DNA of 32,000 nt from Candidatus Saccharimonadota bacterium (GCA_016432445.1 CP066689.1:360001-392000); one strand, 5' to 3'; positions 189-28,335 are shown, counted from the first letter of the stretch. Notes: a model not told the origin generated them from the sequence alone. Program-made: numbers and translations.

Positions 189-233
189 CGATTTACCATA
201 GATTTGTTTAGTCAGATATGCGATAATATCAGT

Positions 234-548
234 ATGAAACAGGAGAAAAATCTAAAACTTCCTAATTTTTTTCGCTCCTATTTTTGGGATATAGAGTTTA
301 ATAAGCTGAAAACTAAAACACACTCTTCTTTAGTCATAAAACGAGTACTCGATAGAGGGAATCTTCGTGACATACGTTGGTTAGTAAAAACATATGGAAA
401 AGACGCAATCAAAGAAGTGGTTATGAAAACACGAGATTTAGCCCGCCCCACCTGTAATTTTTGGGCAGATGTTTTAGATCTTGATAAAAGTAAAATACCA
501 TGTTTACAAAAACCTTACTTCCCGATACATTTCGGGCTATCCAGTTAA
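234..548 (+). CDS. small protein overlapping the AbiEii-family gene; putative cognate antitoxin/partner
   Basis: The track ORF 204-548 begins at a TTG; the first ATG is at 234 (MKQEKNLKLPNFFRSYFWDIEF...). Its 3' end overlaps the next gene by 49 nt, a typical antitoxin-toxin arrangement. I cannot name a domain with certainty. Confidence 0.5.
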   Translation: MKQEKNLKLPNFFRSYFWDIEFNKLKTKTHSSLVIKRVLDRGNLRDIRWLVKTYGKDAIKEVVMKTRDLARPTCNFWADVLDLDKSKIPCLQKPYFPIHFGLSS

Positions 549-1132
549 TTTCAGGCATTTCCGAGATAAAAAAAGGTTATCTTGCTGGAGGTACTGCTTT
601 AGCGCTTCAGATTGGACATAGAATTTCCGTGGATCTTGATTTCTTCACTCAAGAGGAATTCAATGTAACTGAATTATCTGAGAAATTTTCCTCTTTATCA
701 GAATTCTCACAAGATGGTACCTCAAAATGGACGATATGGGGAAAAGTTGGCCAAACGAAATTTAGTATATTCTACTATAAATATCCATTACTTGAAAAAA
801 CTTTGCCATTTGAAGGGATTCAACTGGCAAGTCTCTCTGATATTGTCGCCATGAAAATCCATGCGATTGAAGATAGAGGGACTAGACGGGATTTTGTAGA
901 TATTTATTTTCTTTTGAAAAAGTATACTTTTGAAGAAATGATTAGTTTTTATCAAAAAAAATATTCTGTTTTAGAAGATCATTTATATTCAATTCTTCGC
1001 GCTCTTGATTATTTTGAGGATGCGGAACAAGAAAGTCAAATGCCAAAAATGATACTTGAGGTCAATTGGGAAGAAGTAAAAGAATGTTTTAGAAAAGAGA
1101 CGTACCGCCTCATTAAAAAAAAGTTAAAATGA
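500..1132 (+). CDS. nucleotidyltransferase, AbiEii/AbiGii toxin family
   Basis: The N-terminal YLAGGTALALQIGHRISVDLDFF matches the GGTAL..R.S.D.D nucleotidyltransferase signature of AbiEii (DUF1814-type) toxins. The 210-aa ORF has an ATG start. Confidence 0.75.
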   Translation: MFTKTLLPDTFRAIQLISGISEIKKGYLAGGTALALQIGHRISVDLDFFTQEEFNVTELSEKFSSLSEFSQDGTSKWTIWGKVGQTKFSIFYYKYPLLEKTLPFEGIQLASLSDIVAMKIHAIEDRGTRRDFVDIYFLLKKYTFEEMISFYQKKYSVLEDHLYSILRALDYFEDAEQESQMPKMILEVNWEEVKECFRKETYRLIKKKLK

Positions 1133-1243: not shown

Positions 1244-2029
1244 ATGACTGAAACCCCCAATTTTTACGAACCTGCAACTCCTTTTAAATACCCTCTTCTT
1301 GATACTGATTTTTATGCAGATAGTACAGAGATAAAGCGATTAAAACATTTTCCGCACAAAGTGGTAAGAATAACAGAAGGAACTTATGATAATCGTCCTC
1401 TAGGTTCATTAAAAAATCAACTTAAATCAACTCAATATGAATACATTGAAGGCCGTAAAATTCTTCAAAGATTAAATGATCATTATCATATTCCTGTACC
1501 TGATTTTGATATCGTTATCGGGTCAGGGAATGATCAGCAAGTAACCTATTACACAATAGTCGACAAAATCTCAGGTAAAGATTTAGAATATTGTTCAATT
1601 AAACCTCGGGAAATGAAGCATGTAAAAAAGTTAGTAGATGAATTGTACGGTTCAATTGCCCAATATCTTTGGGATACTTATCAAGAAGGCGGATGGTATT
1701 TAAGTGATCTAGTAAAAGATGATTCCCAACTTGTTTATGGGAAGAAGAAAGGAGAGAAACAAAAGAGAATATATTTTGTAGATATTGAACCACGATTAGA
1801 GTATTTAGATTTACAAGATTCTAGGACTCATACACAAGTACTCATATTGGCTTTTAACTGGCTTTATGAAATGATTAAGTCCAGAGAATATGAATTTGGA
1901 TCAAAATTAAGACACGCGCGACAGACTTTACTCAATTTTGCAAATACTGTTTCTCCTTTTAATGAATATTTTCCAGATGTCCAAATGGTGAAAGAAGAAT
2001 TAGAAAGAGGAAATTTTTTAGAAGAATAA
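1244..2029 (+). CDS. hypothetical protein with weak protein-kinase/aminoglycoside-phosphotransferase-like features
   Basis: This is a 261-aa ORF. SDLVKDDSQLVYG resembles a HxDxxxxN-type catalytic loop, and RIYFVDIEP resembles the metal-binding IDxE/DFG strand. The function is tentative. Confidence 0.6.
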   Translation: MTETPNFYEPATPFKYPLLDTDFYADSTEIKRLKHFPHKVVRITEGTYDNRPLGSLKNQLKSTQYEYIEGRKILQRLNDHYHIPVPDFDIVIGSGNDQQVTYYTIVDKISGKDLEYCSIKPREMKHVKKLVDELYGSIAQYLWDTYQEGGWYLSDLVKDDSQLVYGKKKGEKQKRIYFVDIEPRLEYLDLQDSRTHTQVLILAFNWLYEMIKSREYEFGSKLRHARQTLLNFANTVSPFNEYFPDVQMVKEELERGNFLEE

Positions 2030-2089: not shown

Positions 2090-3922
2090 ATGGGAGAAGG
2101 TACTCCATTACCATCTAAGGTAATAACAAATAATCTTCAAGAAGGATCTAACGGCGCTAATACGTATGATAATAGGAATAATCATTTAGATTCGGCTGTT
2201 CTATCGCAACAAGAGGGGTTAAGTGCACTAAATAGGTTTCTCCAAAGAAAAGCTGGTTTTGATTCCTTAGGGATATTTGTAATAGATTTAAATGGAGAAA
2301 AATACAAAAAAAAATCGGGTAATTGTCAATTCTATTTGGGTAGATTGGAAGAAAGCTCCAAAAATCCGTATTATCTTAGTATAAATCCTGCTTATTATTT
2401 GGGACACATGCCAGAATTGTTATTTGTTGTTCCTCGAATAGCTCATGTTGGAAAAAAACCATACTACTGGGTTGAATTTACAGACGAACTTATCGATGGT
2501 ATCATAAAGCCAGCTTTTACTTCCTGTCGTCTAAGACCTGATCAATCGACATCTAAGATCGACTCTGTTTACTGGAGAGGTTTTGAAGAGCAATTACTCG
2601 TAGATTTTATTCGAGGGGAAAATAACATTACAACTTCAGACTTAAGGCCATTTCGAATTAAATTACATTCTAAGGATCCTTACTCGTTTGGAGGAATTCA
2701 GGATCTGAAACTTTGTCTAACTGCCAATTCCAAGATTAATGGTGGAGACGAACTGCTTATAGTTCCGCGAACCGATTCACAGAATCTTTATTCATGGATA
2801 GACATATATAAACAGACAAAAACAGGAGAAGAACTTATAAAAATTTCAACACATCGAATATCGCAAGAAGAAAAAAAACTTATAAGCATTGGTTGGAAAA
2901 ATCCTGAAACTCAATATTTGGTTGATTATTTATCAGGAGATCCTAAAGTTACTTTCAACAACTTACGTCCATTACGTTTAAAACTTCCTGAACATCTTGG
3001 TCAAACATATGTTGGTTTAGAAGCAAACAACAAAAAAAAATTTTTAATTTCTATCCATAAGTTTGAGGTAGATGAGGTAATTTTAATTCCGAAGCAAGAT
3101 CCTAAAGGGTTGTATCAATGGGTTGAAGCTTATGAATTTGATCCTGAGACAGGAGAGCCTATTGGTGAAGCCATAACTTCTGTAAGAATGACACGAGGTG
3201 TGGGATTTGAAAAACTTGGCTGGCTTGGAGCTGGAATACAAAGTCTAATTGATTATTCCAGTGAGGTAAGAATGTTCAATGACCTTTTGCCAATAACTTT
3301 GAAAGTTGGTGCAAACACTAAAATGCTTGATGTATGGGGTACGAAAAATGAACATGTTTGGTTAACCCTTTCAGTAAAATCTGGTTTAAAAAGTGGTGAT
3401 AGTATTGAACTTATTCCCGACAAGGAATTAGAGGATACTATTGTTTATAAAATGGTACGTGGACAAACAGAATTAGGTTCTTATAGTTTTGATAGAAAAA
3501 CTAAAAAATTTAGCGTTATTGAATTTCATGATTTTCGAAATATTATTCTTCAACCAAGAGATTATTTGCTAGATTATTCGCAAGGTAAAATTGGATTTAC
3601 AGAATTAAAAACGATTCATTTAACAGTAAAAAAAGATCCTGGGATGATTGATATTCTTTCAAAAGGGAAAGTTCGTATTTACATAACGCCTTCTAAATCC
3701 TTTGGTTTAGTTCCAGAGGATGAGGTGGAACTTATTCCACAAGAAGAAAATGAAGGTCAAGCAATATTTGCATTCGTCAAAAATGGAGTAGTATTGGGGC
3801 GATATATATATGAATCTCAAACAATGAAATTTTATCAAGAACCTATAAGGGATGTTCAAGCTTTACCACTTATTTCTCGAGAAGAAGCTTTAAGAGTATT
3901 AGGTATGTTTTTTGATAATTGA
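2090..3922 (+). CDS. 610-aa protein built from a ~108-aa unit repeated about five times; no recognised domain
   Basis: Self-alignment anchors are ELLFVVP(aa109), ELLIVP(221), EVILIP(329), SIELIP(438), EVELIP(545) and LVDF(169), LVDY(277), LIDY(386), LLDY(492). TGaTAAAAT (2074-2082) lies 7 nt before the ATG. Confidence 0.8.
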   Translation: MGEGTPLPSKVITNNLQEGSNGANTYDNRNNHLDSAVLSQQEGLSALNRFLQRKAGFDSLGIFVIDLNGEKYKKKSGNCQFYLGRLEESSKNPYYLSINPAYYLGHMPELLFVVPRIAHVGKKPYYWVEFTDELIDGIIKPAFTSCRLRPDQSTSKIDSVYWRGFEEQLLVDFIRGENNITTSDLRPFRIKLHSKDPYSFGGIQDLKLCLTANSKINGGDELLIVPRTDSQNLYSWIDIYKQTKTGEELIKISTHRISQEEKKLISIGWKNPETQYLVDYLSGDPKVTFNNLRPLRLKLPEHLGQTYVGLEANNKKKFLISIHKFEVDEVILIPKQDPKGLYQWVEAYEFDPETGEPIGEAITSVRMTRGVGFEKLGWLGAGIQSLIDYSSEVRMFNDLLPITLKVGANTKMLDVWGTKNEHVWLTLSVKSGLKSGDSIELIPDKELEDTIVYKMVRGQTELGSYSFDRKTKKFSVIEFHDFRNIILQPRDYLLDYSQGKIGFTELKTIHLTVKKDPGMIDILSKGKVRIYITPSKSFGLVPEDEVELIPQEENEGQAIFAFVKNGVVLGRYIYESQTMKFYQEPIRDVQALPLISREEALRVLGMFFDN

Positions 3923-3951: not shown

Positions 3952-6900
3952 ATGGGAAAGGAAAATGAAGAAATTATAGCATCAGCTAATCAAAGAGCTG
4001 GATTAAACGAACCGCAAGAATTACCTGTCCTAGGATCAAACGCTAAAGCTTTGATTGAAAAAATCATAACTCTTAATCCAAAAAACCCTGATTATCCTTT
4101 TTCTCAACCTTTTGACAAGCATTATGCAGGAATGGTCTCAGATGATCCTGGAGTTTATGCACGTAAATATACTCTTGCAAGAGCACTTATTGCAGATGGA
4201 AGATATGGGAATATAAGATTTCTCGATACTGCTTTTATTCCTCAAGGAGAAGAAGTTCCTCCTCAAGTACAGGCTTTAAAAGATGATCTTCATGTGAGAG
4301 TAAGGGAAGAACTATTGAAAAGAGGAGATAAAAAAGTAACGGCAGAAGTGGAAGAAGATATGAGAAATTTTACTCAAGAAGTAGATGAGGGTAAAACACT
4401 TGACGCTCAAGAGTTTAGAAAACTTGTGCATCTTTTTGGAGGTTCCCGTGTTGTTGATATTCTCTATCGGACTCGGCCGGAATTTCGAGGAATGCCAGTT
4501 GAAAAAGTGAAAAGCATTATTGCTGATTTTTTGGGTGATTTCTTAGTTAAAAAAGGCGGTTTTAATCCTGACGATATTGAGGTTGGAATAAAATATTTAT
4601 CAGAGGCAACATTTCAGGAAGGATTGTATGAAACAATAAAAGATAATTGCCTTCAATTTTATAACTTCCAAAAAAAAGCAGGTTCGGCAGAATCAGATAG
4701 AGAATTAACTAATGAATATTTTGATATTGCCGATATGGAAATACAAGGTTTTAAGAACCCTCATCTGGATCAGATTTTACAAAGAGCAAGGCAATATTAT
4801 ACGTCACTTTACGAAGACTTGCCTAAACCACCTCAAATTATTGGCGAGCTTAAAGAAGGAAGATCTTTTCCTGACTTGAATCAGCTTATTAATATGAAGG
4901 AAGTGGTAGATAAAAGAAGAGTTGCTATTGCTGATGACATGGGACTTGGTAAAAGTGCTTCAATGATACTGACAAAAGAAATGCTACATCTTAAATGTGC
5001 TTTGGTTGCAGCACCAGCTAATGTTATTTCAACTTGGCAACGTTATTTATCTGATCAAAAAGTAGATGGTAAACAGATGGGATATTTTAAAGAAGGGATG
5101 GCTCCCAAAGTAGTTATTATTGATAATCCTTTAGCTTTACATGAATCTGATTTTTCTCAAGCTGATTATGTTCTGATTTCTCATGAACGATTAAATGATT
5201 CTTATACCCCAGTTTTAGAGCAAGTGCCTTTTGAAATGGTAATTGTTGATGAGGTACATAAACTAAAAAATCTACAAAAAGGAGTAAGAGCAGGTAATTT
5301 AATTAAAATTGCGCAAGCCGCAGAAAGACGTAATGCCTACTTAGGAATTTTATCAGGAACACCAGTCCCAAATAAAATTCAGGACGTCGCTATGATATTA
5401 AAATTGCTATATCCGGAAAGATTTGGTGAAGCTTCTAACAAAGATCTTGTTAAAAAAATCATTAATGGAGATCTTCTAGATTTGAGAAGTTTACTTATAC
5501 CACGAATGCAGATGAAAGGTAAAGAAAGTCTTAATTTGCCTGAACTTACACAAGATGTTATTAAAGTTGATATGTCTCCTGAAGAAAAAGAAGTGTATGA
5601 GGTACTTATGGAAAATGACGAAATGGAAGCAACGGAAAAAATTCAGGTGTTGAGACAGTTTTTAATGAATCCAAAGCTTCTTGATATGACTCCGAATATG
5701 GAAGGCTCAAAAATTAAAGCAGTAGGTCAACATCTTAATAATGTTTTTCAAAATAAAAATAAAGTAGTAATGTTTGTTAATGGTTACGTTCAAGGAATAA
5801 TAAGAGGCGATAAGGAAAAAATAATTTTAGGCAGAATGGGTTTACCTGATGATGTTGAGATAAAAGTAATTCATGGTGAAGATATGGGAAATATCGAACG
5901 TGAAAGAATACAATCTGAATTTAATAACTCTGATAAAAAAATACTACTTGTTGTCAGCGGACAGACTGCTGATGTTGGAATTGATTTATCAGGAGGAGAA
6001 GAAGTTGTTTTCTACAATGAACCTTGGTCACTTTATGATAAACAACAACAGTTGGCAAGAGTGCATAGAGAGGGCGTAAAACATCCTGTTAGAAGTATGA
6101 CATTTATAACTAATGGAACAATTGAAGATGGAATAAGCATATATATCCAAATGAAGCAAAATGCAATAGAAAAACTTCTTAGAGGGATAGAACTATCCAA
6201 GATGGACAAAGAGTTACTTGAAAAAGATGAGAAAGTTGAGGGTTCAAACCTAGAGGTTAATCGAGAACTTGCCGATTATTATTTTTCATCATTAGATAGG
6301 ATGATGAAAATTTTTGGCCACGTTAGAGAATTAGGTGAGGAAGCATTCATAAAATTTTTGGAAAGATATGGTGAGGATTATGCAGAGTGCTATAGCGATT
6401 TGGGTAGCCGAAACTATCAATCAAATGCTTGCCGGATAAACGGAACTATTATTGCTGAGATGATTGAGAAACATGGTCAAGATCTAGTAGGCTTGAGGAT
6501 ACTTGATATTGCGTCAGGACCTGAAATGTTAAGAAAACACATTACAGATAAATATCAAGATAGAATAATAAGCCTTGATATTAATGCTTTGCATTTTAAA
6601 GGTGAAGGAGGAAACAGAATTGTGGGGAGTTTTACTGCTTTGCCGGTTGAGAGTGGTTCTATCGATTATGCTAATCTCTCTTTAGCTTTACATTATTCAA
6701 GGTTTGTACCAAGTAAAGGAGAATATGAAAGATTAAAGGTTTTGGCTGAGATGAATAGAGTTTTAAAGATTGGAGGTAAAACAGTTCTTAATCTCATGTA
6801 TAATGCAGATCTAAAAAGTTTTGAAAAGTTTAAGACAATTGTCGAAGCACTTGGTTTTAAAATTGATGAAGAATATACGGATAATGTTATAGTAGGTACA

Positions 6901-7293
6901 CAATATCAGTCACGAATTATTACATTAGAAAAGATTCAAGATATAGATCCAGATATTAATGTGGTTATTAGTAACATAGATAAAGAAGCTTATGATGGAT
7001 TAAAAATGCCAAAAGGAAGTTGCGGGTTAAAAAATCCCCGCAAGATTGTAAGAGCATTTGTGGTAAATGGAGTAAATCATCCAGTTAAATTCAATGATAG
7101 CGATCAGGCTGTTTTGGAAGAAGAAACAACCATAATGACAGAAGGAGAACAGCTAAGAAATATGTACGGCGGGGTTAAATATATCCCAAGAGATGATATA
7201 ATCCAAAATGGATATGCTCGTGTTCTTATAGCTAATAAATACGTTTTGTTTAAAAAACTTCAGAATAACAATGGGGTTGTTATTATAAGATAA
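3952..7293 (+). CDS. SNF2-family ATPase/helicase fused to a C-terminal class I SAM-dependent methyltransferase domain
   Basis: SNF2 motifs are DDMGLGKS (nt 4933-4956), DEVH (5248-5259), LSGTPVPNK and QLARVHREG (6049-6075). The methyltransferase fold shows ILDIASGPE (6502-6525), IISLDIN, GSIDYANLSLALHY and LKIGGKTVLNL. About 310 aa at the N-terminus and about 150 aa at the C-terminus are unassigned. Confidence 0.85.
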   Translation: MGKENEEIIASANQRAGLNEPQELPVLGSNAKALIEKIITLNPKNPDYPFSQPFDKHYAGMVSDDPGVYARKYTLARALIADGRYGNIRFLDTAFIPQGEEVPPQVQALKDDLHVRVREELLKRGDKKVTAEVEEDMRNFTQEVDEGKTLDAQEFRKLVHLFGGSRVVDILYRTRPEFRGMPVEKVKSIIADFLGDFLVKKGGFNPDDIEVGIKYLSEATFQEGLYETIKDNCLQFYNFQKKAGSAESDRELTNEYFDIADMEIQGFKNPHLDQILQRARQYYTSLYEDLPKPPQIIGELKEGRSFPDLNQLINMKEVVDKRRVAIADDMGLGKSASMILTKEMLHLKCALVAAPANVISTWQRYLSDQKVDGKQMGYFKEGMAPKVVIIDNPLALHESDFSQADYVLISHERLNDSYTPVLEQVPFEMVIVDEVHKLKNLQKGVRAGNLIKIAQAAERRNAYLGILSGTPVPNKIQDVAMILKLLYPERFGEASNKDLVKKIINGDLLDLRSLLIPRMQMKGKESLNLPELTQDVIKVDMSPEEKEVYEVLMENDEMEATEKIQVLRQFLMNPKLLDMTPNMEGSKIKAVGQHLNNVFQNKNKVVMFVNGYVQGIIRGDKEKIILGRMGLPDDVEIKVIHGEDMGNIERERIQSEFNNSDKKILLVVSGQTADVGIDLSGGEEVVFYNEPWSLYDKQQQLARVHREGVKHPVRSMTFITNGTIEDGISIYIQMKQNAIEKLLRGIELSKMDKELLEKDEKVEGSNLEVNRELADYYFSSLDRMMKIFGHVRELGEEAFIKFLERYGEDYAECYSDLGSRNYQSNACRINGTIIAEMIEKHGQDLVGLRILDIASGPEMLRKHITDKYQDRIISLDINALHFKGEGGNRIVGSFTALPVESGSIDYANLSLALHYSRFVPSKGEYERLKVLAEMNRVLKIGGKTVLNLMYNADLKSFEKFKTIVEALGFKIDEEYTDNVIVGTQYQSRIITLEKIQDIDPDINVVISNIDKEAYDGLKMPKGSCGLKNPRKIVRAFVVNGVNHPVKFNDSDQAVLEEETTIMTEGEQLRNMYGGVKYIPRDDIIQNGYARVLIANKYVLFKKLQNNNGVVIIR

Positions 7294-7315: not shown

Positions 7316-7816
7316 ATGGAAAGACCTATAGTTCCAAATGAAGCTCGAACCCATGCTTTCTTTGATCGTTCAGCTGCAGATGTTGCTGAAGATATGGCAG
7401 AAAGAGTATATGAACGGATAGAGGATAAAGTAACATACAGAGAAGGCCGAGCTAAAATTCTTCAAGTTAGTACTACAGAGGGTCAGAAACAATACGTTAT
7501 CGCAGTGGCAGAACCTTATTCTGCAGCGAATCCAAATAGAGTATGGAAGGGTAAAAGACTTGATGAAATAAAAGCAAGTAAACCTGGAGATATAGAAGTA
7601 TATGGTTACAGAGCTGGAATACTTCCTTTTGGAACAGCAAAAGGAGGAGATAATGTGTTGATTCGTGAGTTAAGAGATCTTGAGACAAATGAACAAATAA
7701 AATCTCCTACAGCTGTAGCAAGGGTATTAGGTCTTGTTCATGGAGATAGGGGAAAATTAACTTTCTCCGGAGAAAATCAGTTGAGATTTGAAAGGATAAA
7801 TACTCCTCAAAGATAA
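7316..7816 (+). CDS. divergent 3-methyladenine (alkyladenine, AAG/Mpg-type) DNA glycosylase-like protein
   Basis: FFDRSAADVAEDM resembles the FF.R....VA..LLG N-terminus. VAEPYSAANP resembles the ETEAY acid/aromatic motif. GDIEVYGYRAG...GGDNVLIRELRD resembles G..YVY..YG...G.AVLIRA. SPTAVARVLGL resembles GPg.l..alGi. The protein is shorter than typical family members, so the call is tentative. Confidence 0.45.
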   Translation: MERPIVPNEARTHAFFDRSAADVAEDMAERVYERIEDKVTYREGRAKILQVSTTEGQKQYVIAVAEPYSAANPNRVWKGKRLDEIKASKPGDIEVYGYRAGILPFGTAKGGDNVLIRELRDLETNEQIKSPTAVARVLGLVHGDRGKLTFSGENQLRFERINTPQR

Positions 7817-18000: not shown

Positions 18001-18015
18001 TGATATATTATAGCA
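18001..18015 (-). promoter_or_regulatory. extended -10 promoter, leaderless configuration
   Basis: On the minus strand, TGcTATAAT (complement of 18007-18015) is followed by 6 nt and the ATG at 18000. Confidence 0.45.
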
Positions 18016-18061
18016 CTACATTTAAGCCATGAAAAAAAACACCCACTAACTTTTTAAGAAA

Positions 18062-18097
18062 CCCCGCAAAGCGGGGAGCCCCGACATCATTGTCGGG
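18062..18097 (-). terminator. GC-rich double hairpin; intrinsic terminator of the GC-rich two-gene module
   Basis: The minus strand reads CCCGAC-aatgat-GTCGGG, then CCCCGC-ttt-GCGGGG, followed by TTTCTT. Confidence 0.65.
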
Positions 18098-18125
18098 ACC
18101 GGGGTGTTTTTGGTGCTGCGGAAAT

Positions 18126-18590
18126 CTATTCGAAGAAGTCAGGGGCGGTGTCGTCGTCAATCTTGGCGATGAACTCCCGACAGAGACCCTGGATGGCTGA
18201 AAGAACCCACCAGCCAATGGTTTCATCCCAATGGTTTGCCAATCCAGAGCCGGCGACCACGAGGCCATGCTCAGTGACAGAACCGACGTATCGTGTGTCA
18301 CTCTTCTGGTAAAGCCAAGGTGCGTTGACTTGAACATCTCTAGTTGTTAGGCCAGTGCGAGTGGCAATGGTTCCTTTGGATCCGGCGATCTTGTCGTAGG
18401 GATATTCCCATCTTGGTCGATCGCCGTATACGTCGTCGGCGAGAATGTCATCGGTGCCAAGATCAAAAACAGCAATATAGAAATCCTTCCTGCCGCCAAC
18501 TAGTTCCGTGCCCAAAATAGCTTCAATTGATGGCCTGATCATGGCGAGGGCTTTCTGAGCGAGTTCCTTCGTTAGAATGTAGGTGACCAT
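18126..18590 (-). CDS. hypothetical protein, possibly GlcG/HbpS-like (DUF336-type) fold
   Basis: This 154-aa ORF is GC-rich, with a strong SD (GAAAGGAGAAGGA) upstream. IAGSKGTIATRTGLTTRDV and GSVTEHGLVVAGSGLANHWDE loosely resemble the GlcG motifs (..KA.TA.. and G.iGaiGvSG...D). The function is tentative. Confidence 0.65.
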   Translation of the reverse strand: MVTYILTKELAQKALAMIRPSIEAILGTELVGGRKDFYIAVFDLGTDDILADDVYGDRPRWEYPYDKIAGSKGTIATRTGLTTRDVQVNAPWLYQKSDTRYVGSVTEHGLVVAGSGLANHWDETIGWWVLSAIQGLCREFIAKIDDDTAPDFFE

Positions 18591-18636
18591 TTTTTCCTTC
18601 TCCTTTCAAATTGAGTAAGTTACTTTGCAGTGTGTG

Positions 18637-18924
18637 TTAGTTCAGCTCGACCACCCAGTGGGTGCCGTCGTTGGCGAGAACAAAGTTCCAGCCCGCCATT
18701 ACATATCGATCCTTCAGTTCAATGATCGTGTTGATGGCATTGGTATCGTAGGGTAGTTCTACGACAGCGTATCTTACGGTCTCTCCTCCTTTGTAGTTCG
18801 CGACCAAAGCCGCATCTATGCCAGCTTCGATTGCCGCTACCTGTTGTGAGTGTGCAAGCGTTCTTTGAAGATAACCCTCCTGATCCTCGAGTTCTTCCTG
18901 GAAATGAATTTTGAGTAGTGCCAT
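18637..18924 (-). CDS. hypothetical protein (95 aa), GC-rich, no recognised domain
   Basis: The ATG at 18924 is preceded by AAGGAGGA. The longer track ORF (to 19128) runs through the promoter and is unlikely to be real. Confidence 0.65.
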   Translation of the reverse strand: MALLKIHFQEELEDQEGYLQRTLAHSQQVAAIEAGIDAALVANYKGGETVRYAVVELPYDTNAINTIIELKDRYVMAGWNFVLANDGTHWVVELN

Positions 18925-18961
18925 TTGCTTTCCTCCTTTAGCTTTTAGCCATTTTATTTTT

Positions 18962-19017
18962 GAGCACACTGCTCTTTCTAGCAATAAATTTATTATAGCC
19001 AAAAAGAGCATGTGCTC
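18962..19017 (-). promoter_or_regulatory. putative promoter flanked by two GAGCA-N2/3-TGCTC palindromes (operator-like)
   Basis: The minus strand reads GAGCAcaTGCTC (complement of 19006-19017), tttttggc, TATAAT (complement of 18992-18997), aaatttattgctagaaa, GAGCAgtgTGCTC (complement of 18962-18974). Confidence 0.4.
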
Positions 19018-25308: not shown

Positions 25309-28300
25309 TTACCACGCCTCACAAATCATCTTAAAAGAGCAGAAGGAACAGAGGGCGCTTACCTTTGGTTTAAAATCATCACTTCGTATTTTCGTGACTA
25401 TCTCAACGATTTCATTTTTCACTTCACTCATATCTTCATCAGTTCGTTTAATTAATTTTTTTTGCATATCTTTTAAGTAATAAAAAGCAAGTCCGACTTG
25501 TTCCAATTTTTTTCCATAAAGTCCTTTATCGGTTGCCGCCAAAGCATAAATTGAAAGCTGAAGACTTTTTGCAAGTTCCTTGTCATCAGGCATACTTCCG
25601 GTTTTATAATCAATAATCTCGATTCCTCCATTTTCTGTTTTATCAACTCTGTCAATTTTGCCGGTTAGGAAGATATCATCAACAAGTTTTATTTTGAATA
25701 ATTTTTCAAGCGCCATAATTTCAATGTCGGGATTGTGGTAGTTTTTAAAATATTCATCAATTATTTTTTCCCCTTCTTGTTTCATTTTTTCCTGATGTTC
25801 GGCTGAGGCATAACCGATCGGGACCCATTGTTCATGATAAATTTCCCTTAACCTTGGTAAACCAATTTTTTTATCATTAATATATTCTTGATAAAATCTT
25901 TGCAAAGTTTTATGTATAGTATCTCCAAAAGAGGCGGCAGACGAAGAAAGAGTTGGAATCTTTAATATATATTGATATTTATACTGCAAAGGACATTTGT
26001 CAAAACATTCAAGCTGGGAAAAAGAGAAGTTAGTTAGCATGAATTTTTCTTTAATAATGTTCTCTTCTGGTTTTTTAAAATCAAAAATTGAAAGCTGAAG
26101 TTTCTCTTCTTTTTTCTTAGACTCAATTTGTTTCATGATGTCTTCTCCCAAGGCTTCAATGACAAAAGGAGAGATTTTTCTTTCCCTTTTTCCCTCTCCA
26201 TAACTTTGAGACAAAGATAAGTATAGGTTGTCTTTAGCCCGGGTCATGCCAACATAAAACAATCTCCGTTCCTCCTGCATATGATAATCGCCTTGAGGAA
26301 GGATTTCTTTTATAAGTTCATTGGGAATTGGTATGGGTTCTTTTTTTTCATAGGTGGGAAAGCGCCCCCGGCTTAAATTAACTAAAAAAACAATTGGAAA
26401 TTCTAAACCTTTAGCAGCATGAGCAGTCATAATATTGACAGCGTCATAGTCAGCAACATCATCTTCAGCTACAATCGGTGATTCACCCACCTCCATACTC
26501 ATATCAAGGTAATCAACGACTGCGTAAACTGAGGCATCAGAATGTCCGTTTTCGTAGGATTTCAGTTTGCTGAAAAACTTACTAATATTAAGAGCGATTT
26601 TTTCCTGTTTTTGCGATTGATAAGTAACGATTTGTTTTATGTAGCCGGTATCTTCCAAAAAGTAATACAATATTTGTCCTGCTGAGTCTTTTTTAACCAG
26701 TTCAAGATGACGATGAATCATTTTATAGATTTTATCTAATGCAACTTTTGTATCTTCATGCAAAAGAGGAAGAAACTTTTTATAAATCTGCAAATTGTCA
26801 TTGCGAGGCATAGCCGAAGCAATCTCCGCATTAGATTCCTTCTCCGCCAGCCCATTCGGGTCTGAGCCCCTTAGGGTCGAAGACTGGCGGATCGGAATGA
26901 CAGAGATAAGAAACAGATAAACTTCAATAGCCAATAAAAGAGGGAGATTGGTTTTTTTTGAAAAAGTAATTAATAGATTAATATCCCTCGTGTCAATATT
27001 AAAAATATCCATACTTAAAACCCGGTAAAGAGATATAGAATCTTCAATGTTATAAAGAACTTTAAGATAAGCGATAAGATCTTTTACTTCAGGCTGTTTA
27101 AAAAGCATTCCCGGTCCAAAAAATTTATAAGGAATGCCTTGACGTATAAACTCGGCAACAAATGGATCAGCATGGTTATTGGCTCTAACTAAAAGGGCAA
27201 AGTTGGAATATTTATAATTTTTTTTTTGTTTAAGCTTTATTATCTCTCTTGAGACAAACTCTGATTCGCGGTTGATATTATCTGCTCCATAAAATTGGAC
27301 AGTCGTTTTATTCTGTCCTCTTTGGGCAGTTAATCTTTTTGATATTCCAAGCTGAGTTTCCAAGGTATCAGGATTATTATTTTGAATGAGCTTGTAGGAA
27401 GAATCAAGGATATGCTGATAAGAACGATAATTAGTTTTTAGGGTTACCTGCATAGCTTGAGGGTAATCTTTCATAAAGGTTAGTATATTGGAGATTGAAG
27501 CGCCCCTGAATTTATAGATAGCTTGAGAGTCATCGCCGACAACTGTTAGATTAGGGTTGGAGTCTGTGGGACAAAGGAGCTTAAGCAAAAGATACTGGGC
27601 AATATTTGTGTCTTGGAACTCATCAACCAGCACATATTTAAACTGCTGCTGATATTTTTTTAAGATTGAAAGGCGGCTGCGGAAAAGCTTCAAAAGATAG
27701 AAAATTAGATCTGAAAAATCAAAAAATCCTTCTTTAATTTTTAATTCCTGATAAGTTTTGTAAGCATTCGCCAGTTCTAGTATTTTTTCTTTTTCTTCCT
27801 CGCTTAAATCGGAGTTATGTGGTTTGTTATTAACCCAGGTTAAATATTGCTCGGGTGAAATATCTTCGTCCCTTAATCTTGAAAAATGCTGTAACATGGC
27901 TCCTAAAAATTTGTGGGGGTTGCCTAAAGGCCGGAAGTATTTAAGATTAAATAAAAACAAATTATTTTTCAAAAACATTATAGTTTCCGCTTGAGTTAAA
28001 AGTTTGTATCCTGCATTTAAGCCAATATGGCTGATTTCATCTCTTAAAATCTGATCGGCAAAAGAGTGGAAGGTTGAGATCCACATCTGAAAATATCCAT
28101 AAGGCATTTCACGATCTACTCTTTCTTCCATCTCAGCACTAGCTTTCTCAGTGAATGTCAGAGCTAAAATTTCGTCAGGTTTGGCTAGTTTGTTAGCAAT
28201 AATATCCTTAATCTTTTCAATAATTACTGTAGTTTTTCCAGTTCCTGCCCCGGCGATAATAAGCAGCGGTCCTGAATTTACAGCAACTGCTTTTTTCTGT

Positions 28301-28335
28301 TCATCATTTAATAAATTATTAGGCGCCAGCTGCAT
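25309..28335 (-). CDS. UvrD/PcrA-type superfamily 1 helicase fused to a C-terminal PD-(D/E)XK (Cas4/AddB-like, Cys-containing) nuclease domain
   Basis: Helicase motifs are AGAGTGKTTVI (Walker A) and VLVDEFQDTN (motif II). In the C-terminus, CPLQYKY, GKIDRVD...IEIIDYKTG and CSFCSFKMIC form the nuclease core plus the Cys cluster. Confidence 0.9.
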   Translation of the reverse strand: MQLAPNNLLNDEQKKAVAVNSGPLLIIAGAGTGKTTVIIEKIKDIIANKLAKPDEILALTFTEKASAEMEERVDREMPYGYFQMWISTFHSFADQILRDEISHIGLNAGYKLLTQAETIMFLKNNLFLFNLKYFRPLGNPHKFLGAMLQHFSRLRDEDISPEQYLTWVNNKPHNSDLSEEEKEKILELANAYKTYQELKIKEGFFDFSDLIFYLLKLFRSRLSILKKYQQQFKYVLVDEFQDTNIAQYLLLKLLCPTDSNPNLTVVGDDSQAIYKFRGASISNILTFMKDYPQAMQVTLKTNYRSYQHILDSSYKLIQNNNPDTLETQLGISKRLTAQRGQNKTTVQFYGADNINRESEFVSREIIKLKQKKNYKYSNFALLVRANNHADPFVAEFIRQGIPYKFFGPGMLFKQPEVKDLIAYLKVLYNIEDSISLYRVLSMDIFNIDTRDINLLITFSKKTNLPLLLAIEVYLFLISVIPIRQSSTLRGSDPNGLAEKESNAEIASAMPRNDNLQIYKKFLPLLHEDTKVALDKIYKMIHRHLELVKKDSAGQILYYFLEDTGYIKQIVTYQSQKQEKIALNISKFFSKLKSYENGHSDASVYAVVDYLDMSMEVGESPIVAEDDVADYDAVNIMTAHAAKGLEFPIVFLVNLSRGRFPTYEKKEPIPIPNELIKEILPQGDYHMQEERRLFYVGMTRAKDNLYLSLSQSYGEGKRERKISPFVIEALGEDIMKQIESKKKEEKLQLSIFDFKKPEENIIKEKFMLTNFSFSQLECFDKCPLQYKYQYILKIPTLSSSAASFGDTIHKTLQRFYQEYINDKKIGLPRLREIYHEQWVPIGYASAEHQEKMKQEGEKIIDEYFKNYHNPDIEIMALEKLFKIKLVDDIFLTGKIDRVDKTENGGIEIIDYKTGSMPDDKELAKSLQLSIYALAATDKGLYGKKLEQVGLAFYYLKDMQKKLIKRTDEDMSEVKNEIVEIVTKIRSDDFKPKVSALCSFCSFKMICEAW
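26798..26901. repeat. ~104-bp GC-rich, inverted-repeat-bounded hairpin element (MITE/REP-like) inside the helicase ORF, read through in frame
   Basis: The ends are GTCATTGCGA (26798-26807) and TCGGAATGAC (26892-26901), complementary at 9 of 10 positions. An inner hairpin CCGCCAG (26844-26850) / CTGGCGG (26884-26890) has a core homologous to 14521-14571. It encodes ...IRQSSTLRGSDPNGLAEKESNAEIASAMPRNDN.... Confidence 0.7.

What the first reader, a model, noticed from the sequence alone, without database searches (positions are those of the whole stretch)
3952..7293. SNF2 ATPase fused to a methyltransferase that is not of the DNA type
The SNF2 motifs I, II, III and VI are intact: DDMGLGKS, DEVH, LSGTPVPNK and QLARVHREG. 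The fused MTase domain has the class I motif I (ILDIASGPE) and the LKIGGKTVL strand.

I see no (D/N/S)PP(Y/F/W) motif, which N6-adenine and N4-cytosine DNA MTases carry. I also see no PCQ or ENV motifs, which C5 MTases carry. The domain therefore resembles small-molecule, RNA or protein methyltransferases.

About 310 N-terminal and 150 C-terminal residues have no assignment. The methyl acceptor of a translocase-tethered MTase of this type is an open question.
Basis: partly seen in the sequence, partly recalled or inferred. Interest (0 to 1): 0.65.

Follow-up and report, generated by a model that had tools for sequence, protein, structure and literature searches.

The report
DNA motor–methyltransferase with glycosylase-like partner
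A rare, uncharacterised gene module of ultra-small (CPR) bacteria joins a DNA-tracking SNF2 motor to an rRNA-type (Rrp8-like) methyltransferase, and pairs it with a variable repeat protein and a divergent methylpurine-DNA-glycosylase-like protein, which hints at an unknown way of methylating and then processing DNA bases.

Summary
ORF 3952-7293 (1113 aa) has intact SNF2 motifs and a class I SAM methyltransferase domain. It has no (D/N/S)PP(Y/F/W), PCQ or ENV motif, and neither do 114 relatives.

The methyltransferase is closest to eukaryotic Rrp8/nucleomethylin (PDB 2zfu), the top hit by both fold and sequence profile. The N-terminal 300 aa form a confident all-alpha domain with no structural match.

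The architecture defines a small family:
- About 155 clusters at 50% identity among 1.84 billion representatives.
- 72 of 185,579 species genomes, across all CPR classes.
- One possible DPANN archaeon.
- Absent from phage collections.

1. Variable repeat arrays (HTH-type, HNH_repeat-type or other) are fused to the N-terminus in long forms. In short forms they are separate upstream genes, here ORF 2090-3922.
2. A small protein flanks the module in 27 of 70 loci, here ORF 7316-7816. It is a divergent methylpurine-DNA-glycosylase (AAG/MPG) fold (hhalign 98%, E 4e-14).

Best reading (about 0.4): an accessory DNA-tracking enzyme that methylates a purine ring nitrogen in DNA, which the AAG-like partner then recognises or excises. 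RNA, protein or SAM-sensing roles remain possible. No biochemistry exists.

The parts
2090..3922 (+). Upstream 610-aa repeat protein with four to five divergent units of about 105 aa. Predicted targeting or anchoring partner of the SNF2-methyltransferase.
   Evidence: It ends 29 nt before the SNF2-MT start on the same strand. The repeat units align at 18-30% identity. BLASTP hits the ORFs that lie directly upstream of SNF2-MT genes in other loci: the L013 847-aa ORF (1.7e-15) and the L158 493-aa ORF (8e-12). In long-form relatives, repeat arrays are fused to the N-terminus of the SNF2-MT protein; in L001, L021, L023, L044 and L061 they are separate upstream genes. It has no Pfam hit.
3952..7293 (+). 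SNF2-methyltransferase fusion protein, 1113 aa. This is the finding itself.
4039..4836 (+). N-terminal all-alpha domain (aa about 30-295), acidic, with no known fold relative.
   Evidence: AF2 model of aa 1-320 has pLDDT 91.8 and pTM 0.83, all helices. Foldseek best E is 0.15 against PDB and 0.16 against BFVD. Median pI is 5.1. It is conserved from aa about 132 in all relatives.
4837..6186 (+). SNF2 ATPase core (aa about 296-745), comprising a Q-motif-like FPDxNQxIN and motifs I, II, III and VI.
   Evidence: Pfam SNF2-rel_dom and Helicase_C. PDB phmmer best hit is 1z63, the Sulfolobus Snf2/Rad54-like ATPase (2e-15), followed by CHD4 and ISWI. The motif residues are invariant.
6187..6471 (+). 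Three-helix linker or lid preceding the methyltransferase (aa about 746-840). It carries the conserved Y810, Y814, Y822, N825 and R828.
   Evidence: AF2 helices 12-32, 37-58 and 63-81 of the C-terminal model. Invariant residues are listed.
6472..6951 (+). Class I SAM-dependent methyltransferase domain, Rrp8/nucleomethylin-like (aa about 841-1000).
   Evidence: AF2 pLDDT 91.6, pTM 0.90. Foldseek top hit is 2zfu_B (E 1.4e-8, TM target 0.69). The A2 profile against PDB ranks 2zfu first (E 1e-6). Pfam census: Methyltransf_11 in 40/40 and Methyltransf_8 in 31/40 family members. No DNA-methyltransferase motifs.
6952..7293 (+). Conserved basic C-terminal alpha/beta domain (aa about 1001-1113), function unknown.
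   Evidence: It is modelled as one compact unit with the methyltransferase. Median pI is 9.0, the only basic domain. All relatives end at the same C-terminus. N1048, D1051, I1078-P1079, R1090 and G1108 are invariant.
7316..7816 (+). Downstream 166-aa protein with a divergent methylpurine-DNA-glycosylase (AAG/MPG) fold. Predicted reader or excision partner.
   Evidence: It starts 22 nt after the SNF2-MT stop on the same strand. hhalign against an MPG profile (human AAG 1f4r plus six bacterial MPGs) gives Prob 97.7%, E 1.7e-12 for the 6-sequence profile, and 98.2%, E 3.7e-14 for the 27-sequence profile. AEPY aligns with E125/Y127 of AAG, VY-GY with Y159/Y162, and LIRE with R182. jackhmmer finds exactly one such ORF in 27 family loci, always flanking the module and never elsewhere. 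Four of five further database members on long contigs also lie next to an SNF2-MT gene.

Best explanation
ORF 3952-7293 is the core of a rare accessory module of CPR (Patescibacteria) genomes. The module has up to three parts.

1. **Repeat array.** It is lineage-variable and in many relatives made of HTH-type or homing-endonuclease-type DNA-binding repeats. Here it is the separate upstream 610-aa repeat protein, whose units have no assigned fold. It is inferred to anchor or target the complex on DNA.
2. **SNF2 ATPase with tethered methyltransferase.** The ATPase has all catalytic motifs intact and is inferred to translocate on double-stranded DNA. It carries an Rrp8/nucleomethylin-like class I methyltransferase with an intact SAM site.
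3. **AAG/MPG-fold partner.** This small protein is encoded directly next to the module. It is inferred to recognise, and where the catalytic Glu is kept (as here) probably to excise, the methylated base.

The methyltransferase fold family methylates ring nitrogens of nucleobases and lacks the motif needed for exocyclic-amine or C5 methylation. The dedicated partner belongs to the fold that handles N-methylpurines in DNA. The most likely acceptor is therefore a purine ring nitrogen in DNA, of the m7G, m3A, m1G or m1A type.

The biological role is most likely genome conflict or DNA marking, not housekeeping.

**Shown:** the domain identities, conservation, gene linkage and distribution.
**Inferred:** DNA translocation, the acceptor, excision and the role.
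For: **Architecture and intact catalytic motifs.**

**Rrp8-like methyltransferase.**
- Foldseek top hit is 2zfu; the next hits are RNA base methyltransferases.
- The profile search of PDB ranks 2zfu first.
- Methyltransf_8 matches 31/40 members, and Bmt2 matches one.
- Rrp8 makes m1A in 25S rRNA (PMC6085284, seen).

**Rosetta-stone link to repeat arrays.**
- N-terminal extensions of long forms are tandem repeats with summed hits to HTH_23/24/28/29. One lineage hits HNH_repeat at 8e-18.
- Homologous repeat proteins are separate upstream genes in short-form loci.

**AAG/MPG-fold partner.**
- hhalign gives 97.7-98.2% probability, E 1.7e-12 to 3.7e-14, collinear over 124-127 columns.
- Other neighbouring proteins give E >= 0.09 as negative controls.

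**Exclusive adjacency.**
- 27 of 70 family loci have the partner (19 of 49 with both flanks), from several CPR classes. No hit lies elsewhere in the flanks.
- A distant relative, L073, has it too.
- All close database relatives lie next to SNF2-MT genes.
- 4 of 5 independent look-ups do as well.

**Accessory nature.**
- 72 of 185,579 species genomes carry the family, although the scan patterns match 113 of 117 known members.
- There are 155 clusters at 50% identity.
- No other conserved neighbour exists.
- A large serine recombinase lies within 6 kb in 8-9 loci.
- An AbiEii toxin gene lies just upstream here.
Against: - No biochemistry exists for any member.
- The closest methyltransferase relatives act on RNA, not DNA.
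- 61% of family loci have no adjacent AAG-like gene, so the partner is not obligatory.
- About half of the partners, including the whole Saccharimonadia group, lack the Glu/Tyr pair at the AAG E125/Y127 positions. Those may bind but not cut.
- One AAG-like gene has no SNF2-MT within 7 kb.
- From my own knowledge, m1A, the Rrp8 product, is normally repaired by AlkB and not by AAG.
- The methyltransferase, linker and N-terminal domains are acidic, which is not typical of DNA-binding surfaces.
- The window's own 105-aa repeat has no assigned fold, so its DNA binding is only extrapolated from other lineages.
- No known defence system is matched in PADLOC.
Confidence: 0.4

Rival explanations
1. Co-transcriptional RNA methylation. 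The SNF2 motor follows or associates with RNA polymerase on DNA, in the manner of RapA. The Rrp8-like domain installs a ring-nitrogen methyl group, such as m1A, on nascent rRNA or tRNA. The repeat arrays direct it to particular operons.
For: The nearest fold and sequence relatives are RNA base methyltransferases: Rrp8, Bud23, Trm11, Trm9, METTL6 and one Bmt2 hit. Nucleomethylin itself acts at rDNA chromatin as well as on rRNA (PMC4278288 and PMC6085284). In one Levybacteria locus the module sits between infB and rpsO-pnp.
Against: The family is present in well under 1% of species genomes, so it is not a housekeeping rRNA modifier. The dedicated partner has a DNA-glycosylase fold, which has no known RNA role. 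No RapA-type N-terminal domain or NCBIfam match was found. Gene context is otherwise unconserved.
Confidence: 0.15
2. Protein methyltransferase on DNA-bound proteins. This would be a prokaryotic remodeler-plus-writer that methylates a nucleoid protein, RNA polymerase or an invader protein it meets while translocating.
For: Class I folds of this type include protein methyltransferases among the Foldseek hits, such as NTM1 and CypM. The large acidic N-terminal alpha domain (pI 5.1) looks more like a protein-binding surface for a basic partner. Eukaryotic SNF2 remodelers work on protein-DNA complexes.
Against: There is no motif of a known protein methyltransferase class; for example, no NPPY. No conserved candidate substrate gene lies nearby. 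The AAG-fold partner is unexplained by this model.
Confidence: 0.15
3. The methyltransferase-like domain is a SAM sensor or regulatory module that gates the ATPase according to SAM level. It would not be a catalyst.
For: SAMTOR, a SAM sensor with this fold, appears among the Foldseek hits.
Against: SAM-site residues and many residues outside it are invariant across all CPR classes: Y810, Y814, Y822, N825, R828, H881, H914, R927 and E933. That pattern is more typical of a substrate pocket. The AAG-like partner again points to a modified base.
Confidence: 0.08
4. An ordinary restriction-modification, BREX or DISARM-like component that makes m6A, m4C or m5C in DNA.
For: SNF2 helicases occur next to DNA methyltransferases in DISARM, BREX and Hma. 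The ATPase gives weak generic hits to ZorD, DpdE, DrmD and BrxH models.
Against: No (D/N/S)PP(Y/F/W), PCQ or ENV motif occurs in 114 members. No DNA methyltransferase is among the top 50 structural hits. All PADLOC and NCBIfam hits are far below the equivalog cut-offs and cover only the ATPase. No partner genes of those systems lie in the window.
Confidence: 0.03

Closest known systems
Rrp8 / nucleomethylin (Pfam PF05148 Methyltransf_8; PDB 2zfu)
   Same: Best structural match (E 1.4e-8, TM target 0.69) and best PDB sequence-profile match (E 1e-6) for the methyltransferase domain. The shared strand order and motifs include the 'LGFK...' C-terminal strand. 31 of 40 family members hit PF05148.
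   Different: Rrp8 is a eukaryotic nucleolar protein with no ATPase, and it methylates N1 of an adenine in 25S/28S rRNA. Here the domain is fused to an SNF2 motor, has an extra conserved C-terminal domain, and occurs in CPR bacteria. The window protein scores below the PF05148 gathering threshold (17.8-20.1 against 27 bits).
SNF2-plus-DNA-methyltransferase modules of defence and mobile elements (DISARM DrmD/DrmMI, BREX BrxH/PglX, Hma, 'polyvalent proteins' of phages and plasmids, PMC5512222)
   Same: A Snf2-family ATPase combined with a SAM methyltransferase, in accessory genome regions with sporadic distribution.
   Different: Those use N6A, N4C or C5 DNA methyltransferases with canonical motifs and have defined partner genes. 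This one has an Rrp8-like methyltransferase, hypervariable repeat arrays and an AAG-fold partner. It matches no PADLOC system and is absent from phage collections.
Methylpurine/alkyladenine DNA glycosylase (AAG/MPG, PF02245; PDB 1f4r)
   Same: ORF 7316-7816 and its relatives are collinear with the MPG fold (hhalign 98%). The window copy keeps the equivalents of E125, Y127, Y159, Y162 and R182.
   Different: It is too divergent for Pfam, with no hit for the window protein. It is much shorter in many lineages (about 105-130 aa). N169 is replaced by Phe. Half of the members lack the catalytic Glu. It is found almost only beside SNF2-MT genes, not as a stand-alone repair gene.
Sulfolobus SSO1653-type and other prokaryotic Snf2 ATPases (PDB 1z63); RapA/HepA
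   Same: The ATPase core is most similar to 1z63 (2e-15), with eukaryotic CHD and ISWI next. All helicase motifs are present.
   Different: It has no RapA-type N-terminal domains. Instead there is a novel all-alpha N-domain, a C-terminal methyltransferase and a basic domain.
Eukaryotic remodeler-assisted DNA methylation (DDM1/LSH with DNMTs) and writer/eraser pairs (DNMT with DME/ROS1 glycosylases)
   Same: The same functional logic, stated from my own knowledge: an SNF2 motor gives a methyltransferase access to DNA, and a glycosylase removes the methylated base.
   Different: Those are separate proteins acting on 5-methylcytosine in chromatin. There is no homology of the methyltransferase or glycosylase with the proteins here. 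This is an analogy only.

Membership tests
Snf2-family ATPase (PF00176 + PF00271) | Pfam domain scores above gathering thresholds | tested here: met
   66.2 bits against a cut-off of 24.9, and 45.2 against 23.5.
Snf2-family ATPase (PF00176 + PF00271) | Helicase motifs I (GxGKS/T), II (DExH), III (SGTP) and VI (QxxxRxxRxG) intact and conserved | tested here: met
   Motifs lie at aa 328, 433, 467 and 700. They are invariant in 25 relatives.
Snf2-family ATPase (PF00176 + PF00271) | dsDNA-stimulated ATPase and translocation | not testable with these tools
   Biochemical property; inferred from family membership only.
Class I SAM-dependent methyltransferase (Methyltransf_11) | Rossmann-like fold with motif I glycine-rich loop and an acidic residue at the end of strand 2 | tested here: met
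   ILDIASGPE (D852, G856) and SLDIN (D876) are invariant. The AF2 model has pLDDT 91.6. PF08241 scores 28.5 bits against a cut-off of 21.2.
Rrp8/nucleomethylin family (PF05148) | Pfam score above the gathering threshold (27 bits) | tested here: not met
   The window protein scores 17.8 bits full length and 20.1 bits for the C-terminal fragment. 31 of 40 relatives hit at E <= 0.01, with a best of 1.9e-9.
Rrp8/nucleomethylin family (PF05148) | Closest solved structure and closest PDB sequence | tested here: met
   2zfu ranks first in Foldseek and in the profile search.
Rrp8/nucleomethylin family (PF05148) | N1-adenine methylation of large-subunit rRNA | not testable with these tools
   Needs biochemistry.
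DNA amino-methyltransferases (N6A/N4C) | Catalytic motif IV (D/N/S)PP(Y/F/W) | tested here: not met
   Absent in the query and in 114 of 114 relatives. The post-strand-4 position reads LALHY.
DNA C5-cytosine methyltransferases | PCQ and ENV motifs | tested here: not met
   No PC[QK] in the query or in any relative. No ENV in the query; four chance ENV matches among 114 relatives.
Methylpurine DNA glycosylase (MPG/AAG, PF02245), for ORF 7316-7816 | Pfam hit above gathering threshold | tested here: not met
   No hit for the window protein even at E <= 10. One relative (L065) hits at 17.5 bits, below the 27-bit cut-off, over 25 residues.
Methylpurine DNA glycosylase (MPG/AAG, PF02245), for ORF 7316-7816 | Homology to the MPG fold by profile-profile comparison | tested here: met
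   Prob 97.7%, E 1.7e-12. Prob 98.2%, E 3.7e-14. Controls give E >= 0.09.
Methylpurine DNA glycosylase (MPG/AAG, PF02245), for ORF 7316-7816 | Catalytic Glu (human E125) and base-stacking Tyr (Y127) | tested here: inconclusive
   They are present in the window protein (AEPY) and in about half of 27 relatives, and replaced in the Saccharimonadia group. This rests on a remote alignment.
Known anti-phage systems with SNF2 helicases (DISARM, BREX, Dpd, Zorya, Hma) | System-specific partner genes (DrmA/B/C, PglZ/BrxC, DpdA-C, ZorA/B, HmaB/C) and equivalog-level model scores | tested here: not met
   There are only generic ATPase-core hits, far below the NCBIfam cut-offs (for example DrmD at 37.6 against 610). 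None of the five neighbouring ORFs scanned (204-548 to 2090-3922, and 7316-7816) hits a partner model; the only hit is AbiEii.

The most novel reading that the evidence does not exclude
A 'write-and-excise' DNA alkylation system. A translocase-tethered, Rrp8-type methyltransferase enzymatically installs N-methylpurines of the m7G, m3A or m1A type on DNA selected by hypervariable DNA-binding repeat arrays. A dedicated AAG-fold protein then reads them or converts them into abasic sites. This would be a previously unknown form of restriction-like genome conflict, or of reversible non-canonical DNA marking, in CPR bacteria and possibly DPANN archaea.
Probability: 0.3. Interest if true: 0.9.

Novelty: new variant of a known kind. 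Interest (0 to 1): 0.72.

Why it matters
All known enzymatic DNA methylation in prokaryotes gives m6A, m4C or m5C. N1, N3 and N7 methylpurines are treated as damage.

This is a conserved module in which a DNA motor carries a ring-nitrogen-type methyltransferase and travels with its own methylpurine-glycosylase-like protein. That would make deliberate, targeted formation of such bases directly testable.

If the reading is right, it adds a new chemistry to prokaryotic genome conflict or epigenetics. It also gives a first functional handle on an accessory system specific to CPR organisms, whose biology is largely unknown. The lineage-variable arrays of 5-13 HTH-type repeats could also be of interest as modular DNA-binding scaffolds.

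If the acceptor turns out to be RNA or protein, this would be an SNF2 ATPase coupled to that kind of methylation; I found none described.

Tried and rejected
- **Canonical DNA methyltransferase.** Rejected by motif scans of 114 members and by structure.
- **Known defence system.** PADLOC and NCBIfam give only generic ATPase-core hits.
- **Phage or plasmid cargo.** IMG/VR and GenBank phages hold only unrelated SNF2 helicases at 20-27% identity. PHROGs likewise.
- **Fold of the N-terminal domain.** No significant match in PDB or BFVD.
- **Conserved enzymatic neighbours.** A Pfam census of 100 flanking proteins gave 137 families, none in more than 4 loci.
- **ORF 1244-2029 (261 aa) as a system component.** It has no homologue in any related locus and no family hit.
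- **Fold of the 68-aa PEGW...HPEWF...YSPEL repeat.** A profile search of PDB gave nothing significant. Only summed weak HTH hits in Pfam were found.
- **First attempts to place ORF 7316-7816.** These failed: Pfam, a PDB profile search and a word-indexed homologue search. The link to MPG appeared only after I built an MPG profile from the human AAG sequence (verified against 1f4r) and six plasmid-borne bacterial MPGs.
- **Literature.** Five searches found no description of this architecture.
- **Housekeeping role.** Rejected on distribution.


Full report
**1. The observation**

The window holds an ATG-to-stop ORF at 3952-7293 on the + strand, encoding 1113 aa.

Pfam assigns three domains, all above gathering thresholds:
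- SNF2-rel_dom, aa 324-563
- Helicase_C, aa 588-708
- Methyltransf_11, aa 851-945

A sub-threshold hit to Methyltransf_8, the Rrp8 family, overlaps the methyltransferase. The protein has no [DNS]PP[YFWH], PC[QK] or ENV motif. The first two are also absent from the C-terminal 360 residues of 114 relatives. Residues 1-310 and about 980-1113 have no family assignment.

**2. A conserved, small, CPR-restricted family**

A search of 5.8 billion proteins returned about 117 full-length relatives at 37-70% identity. Where named, they come from Levybacteria, Magasanikbacteria, Moraniibacteria, Parcubacteria and other Patescibacteria, and they share the same domain order.

A scan of one genome per species (185,579 species) found 72 loci covering all CPR classes. 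These include Saccharimonadia, Gracilibacteria, Absconditabacteria/SR1, Peribacteria and Doudnabacteria. One short contig is binned as a Micrarchaeota (DPANN) archaeon and encodes a 25%-identical protein, cut at its N-terminus by the contig end, with the SNF2 core, methyltransferase and C-terminal domain.

The two peptide patterns used for that scan match 113 of 117 known members. The low count therefore reflects rarity, not insensitivity. From my own knowledge, CPR account for thousands of species in that collection, so the gene is present in roughly 1% or fewer of them. This estimate is an inference.

An exhaustive HMM search with the methyltransferase-plus-C-terminal module against 1.84 billion representatives found only 155 proteins at E <= 1e-30. 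In nearly all long proteins the module sits at the extreme C-terminus of an SNF2 protein; most of the shorter hits are probably fragments.

The family is absent from IMG/VR and from GenBank phages. Only unrelated SNF2 helicases match there.

The rest of the window is ordinary CPR chromosome: sugar-nucleotide and glycosyltransferase genes, a MiaB-like radical SAM enzyme, SHMT, an AddA-like helicase-nuclease and EF-Tu.

**3. Anatomy of the protein**

Alignment of 25 relatives shows conservation from about aa 132 to the very last residue. All ATPase and SAM-site residues are invariant. I modelled the two unassigned ends with 40-sequence alignments.

*C-terminal 354 residues.* They fold with pLDDT 91.6 and pTM 0.90 into one compact unit. 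It consists of three long helices, a Rossmann methyltransferase core and an extra alpha/beta domain.

- Foldseek against PDB puts the methyltransferase domain of human nucleomethylin/RRP8 (2zfu) first, at E 1.4e-8 and TM 0.69 on the target.
- The next hits are Trm11, Bud23/WBSCR22, Trm9, METTL6, UbiG and other class I enzymes.
- No DNA methyltransferase appears in the top 50.
- Independently, a sequence profile of the region hits 2zfu best in the whole PDB, at E 1e-6.
- Methyltransf_8 matches 31 of 40 relatives, and one relative hits the m1A methyltransferase Bmt2.

Yeast Rrp8 makes m1A645 of 25S rRNA, and nucleomethylin also acts at rDNA chromatin (PMC6085284 and PMC4278288, seen). So the domain is Rrp8-like in fold. 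The window protein itself stays below the PF05148 threshold, so I do not file it as a member.

*N-terminal 320 residues.* They fold confidently (pLDDT 91.8) into an all-helical domain. It has no significant match in PDB or in the viral structure library.

*Charge.* Every domain is acidic except the last 113 residues, which have a median pI of 9.0.

**4. First partner: variable repeat arrays**

Relatives range from about 1100 to over 1900 aa. The extra length is always N-terminal.

These extensions are tandem repeats. The commonest unit is about 68 aa with the signature PEGW...HPEWF...YSPEL. It is present in up to about 12-13 copies and gives summed hits to HTH_23, HTH_24, HTH_28 and HTH_29. 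Another lineage uses the homing-endonuclease-associated HNH_repeat (8e-18). Others use further repeat types.

In short-form loci, homologous repeat proteins are encoded as one to four separate genes directly upstream on the same strand. This is seen in L001, L021, L023, L044, L061, L157 and L158. This fusion-or-neighbour pattern is classic evidence for a functional link.

In the window the corresponding gene is ORF 2090-3922 (610 aa), which ends 29 nt before the SNF2-MT start. It has four to five divergent repeats of about 105 aa. It matches the upstream ORFs of two other loci, at 1.7e-15 and 8e-12. Its fold is unassigned.

**5. Second partner: an AAG/MPG-fold protein**

ORF 7316-7816 (166 aa) starts 22 nt after the SNF2-MT stop. 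Standard searches found nothing for it. It reminded me of alkyladenine DNA glycosylase, so I tested that idea in steps.

1. A recalled human AAG segment proved 100% identical to PDB 1f4r residues 6-168.
2. I collected six annotated bacterial MPG genes from plasmids and aligned them with it.
3. Profile-profile comparison with the 166-aa protein's small family gave probability 97.7%, E 1.7e-12 over 124 collinear columns.
4. A 27-sequence profile gave 98.2%, E 3.7e-14.
5. About 27 other neighbouring proteins, used as controls, gave E >= 0.09. The exception was the L001 downstream gene, which is also AAG-like at E 1.8e-6.

In the window protein the alignment is as follows:

| Window motif | Human AAG residue |
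|---|---|
| AEPY | catalytic E125 and Y127 |
| VY-GY | Y159 and Y162 |
| LIRE | R182 |
| Phe | N169 (replaced) |

About half of the relatives keep an acidic-plus-aromatic pair at the first site. The Saccharimonadia group does not.

**6. Strength of the linkage**

An iterative search over every ORF of 60 aa or more in the related loci converged on exactly one AAG-like ORF in each of 27 loci. In each case it lies either within 130 nt of the SNF2-MT gene or immediately upstream of its repeat genes. There were no hits anywhere else in the flanks.

Counting only clear family loci, and adding the L001 partner found by hhalign, 27 of 70 have the partner. Among loci with more than 500 nt on both sides, 19 of 49 have it. 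The distant relative L073 has it as well.

The closest relatives found in the 5.8-billion-protein database all lie beside SNF2-MT genes. As an independent test I looked up five further members on long contigs. Four were adjacent to an SNF2-MT gene, one of which is fragmented. One was an orphan.

No other neighbour is conserved. A census of 100 flanking proteins gave 137 Pfam families, none in more than four loci. Large serine recombinases lie within about 6 kb in eight or nine loci. An AbiEii toxin gene lies just upstream in the window. Both fit an accessory, mobile genomic setting.

**7. How it most likely works**

*Shown:*
- An intact Snf2-type motor.
- An intact SAM site in an Rrp8-like fold.
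- No motif for exocyclic-amine or C5 methylation.
- A Rosetta-stone link to arrays that in most lineages are HTH-type.
- A near-exclusive gene pairing with a methylpurine-glycosylase fold.
- A rare, patchy distribution.

*Inferred:*
- The arrays hold or target the complex on DNA.
- The motor translocates on dsDNA.
- The methyltransferase methylates a purine ring nitrogen in DNA.
- The AAG-like protein binds or excises that base.

From my own knowledge, AAG handles 3-methyladenine, 7-methylguanine, 1-methylguanine, hypoxanthine and ethenoadenine, whereas m1A is normally an AlkB substrate. An m7G, m3A or m1G-type product would therefore fit the partner best, even though Rrp8 itself makes m1A.

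The pair could act in several ways: as mark-then-destroy restriction, as a reversible mark, or as a toxic writer with a protective repair partner. I cannot decide among these.

I put about 0.4 on the DNA-purine model. The rivals are:

| Rival | Confidence |
|---|---|
| Co-transcriptional RNA methylation | 0.15 |
| Methylation of DNA-bound proteins | 0.15 |
| SAM sensing | 0.08 |
| Canonical m6A/m4C/m5C methylation | 0.03 |

The main weaknesses are these:
- 61% of loci lack the partner.
- Half of the partners lack the catalytic Glu.
- The nearest methyltransferase relatives act on RNA.
- Most domains are acidic.
- There is no biochemistry for any member.

**8. Comparison with known systems, and novelty**

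The ATPase is a bona fide Snf2-family member. The methyltransferase is a bona fide class I enzyme that resembles Rrp8, but the window protein does not pass Rrp8's family threshold. It fails the defining motifs of the DNA methyltransferase families.

It matches no PADLOC system. DISARM, BREX, Dpd, Zorya and Hma models hit only the generic ATPase core, far below their cut-offs, and none of the neighbouring ORFs scanned hits one of their partner models.

Five literature searches found no description of this architecture. A 2026 preprint on CPR methyltransferases mentions SNF2 ATPases only in passing, in the context of restriction-enzyme-like proteins.

I rate it a new variant of a known kind, namely translocase-plus-methyltransferase modules. 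There is a substantial chance (about 0.3) that the chemistry and logic are categorically new.

Noticed in passing
window 204-1132 (+): ORF 500-1132 is an AbiEii-type nucleotidyltransferase toxin (Pfam 3e-15; several PADLOC AbiEii models). A 114-aa ORF (204-548) overlaps its start and could be a short or degenerate antitoxin. This abortive-infection/TA gene lies about 100 nt upstream of the four-gene cluster that holds the SNF2-methyltransferase.
   Followed up: partly
window 1244-2029 (+): A 261-aa ORF lies 60 nt upstream of the repeat-protein gene on the same strand. It has no family hit and no homologue in any related locus. It is not present upstream in the closest relative's contig. Whether it belongs to the operon is unknown.
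   Followed up: partly
L016:3463-6042, L033:3064-6093, L044:3564-4988, L061:3183-4865: A tandem repeat of about 68 aa with the signature PEGW...HPEWF...YSPEL occurs in up to 12-13 copies per protein. It gives only weak summed HTH hits in Pfam and no PDB match. It looks like an undescribed array-forming DNA-binding module.
   Followed up: partly
L074:1-2358: A contig binned as a Micrarchaeota (DPANN) archaeon encodes a 25%-identical SNF2-methyltransferase, cut at its N-terminus by the contig end, with the same methyltransferase and C-terminal domain. This is either CPR-DPANN gene sharing or a binning error. The contig is only 2.9 kb.
   Followed up: no
L013:11566-13104 and eight other related loci (L016, L017, L030, L042, L045, L049, L065, L076): Large serine recombinases (Resolvase + Recombinase + Zn_ribbon_recom) lie within about 6 kb of the matched SNF2 gene, directly adjacent in L016 and L045; L076 matches only a short stretch of the ATPase core and is not a clear family member. 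IS200-type transposases flank two further loci, and a phage-type integrase lies 7 kb away in L167. This suggests carriage on integrative elements in some genomes.
   Followed up: partly
L158:1-13954: In one Levybacteria genome the whole module, four unknown or repeat genes plus the SNF2-methyltransferase, is inserted between infB and rpsO-pnp. That interrupts the usual nusA-infB-...-rpsO-pnp arrangement.
   Followed up: no
window 18001-19000: There is a G+C spike (0.48 against about 0.35 elsewhere). It coincides with a 154-aa ORF on the minus strand (18126-18590) and overlapping spurious ORFs. No tRNA or Rfam family lies there. It may be a recently acquired gene.
   Followed up: partly
window 25309-28335 (-): A 1008-aa UvrD-helicase plus PD-(D/E)XK nuclease fusion (AddA-like) lies in the same window. 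It is ordinary recombination-repair machinery and is not linked to the finding.
   Followed up: no
L168:7001-7324: One AAG-like gene has no SNF2-methyltransferase within 7 kb. It lies between a secreted 586-aa protein and a NUDIX hydrolase, and the same protein is seen on 18 contigs. This is an orphan copy or a trans-acting arrangement.
   Followed up: partly
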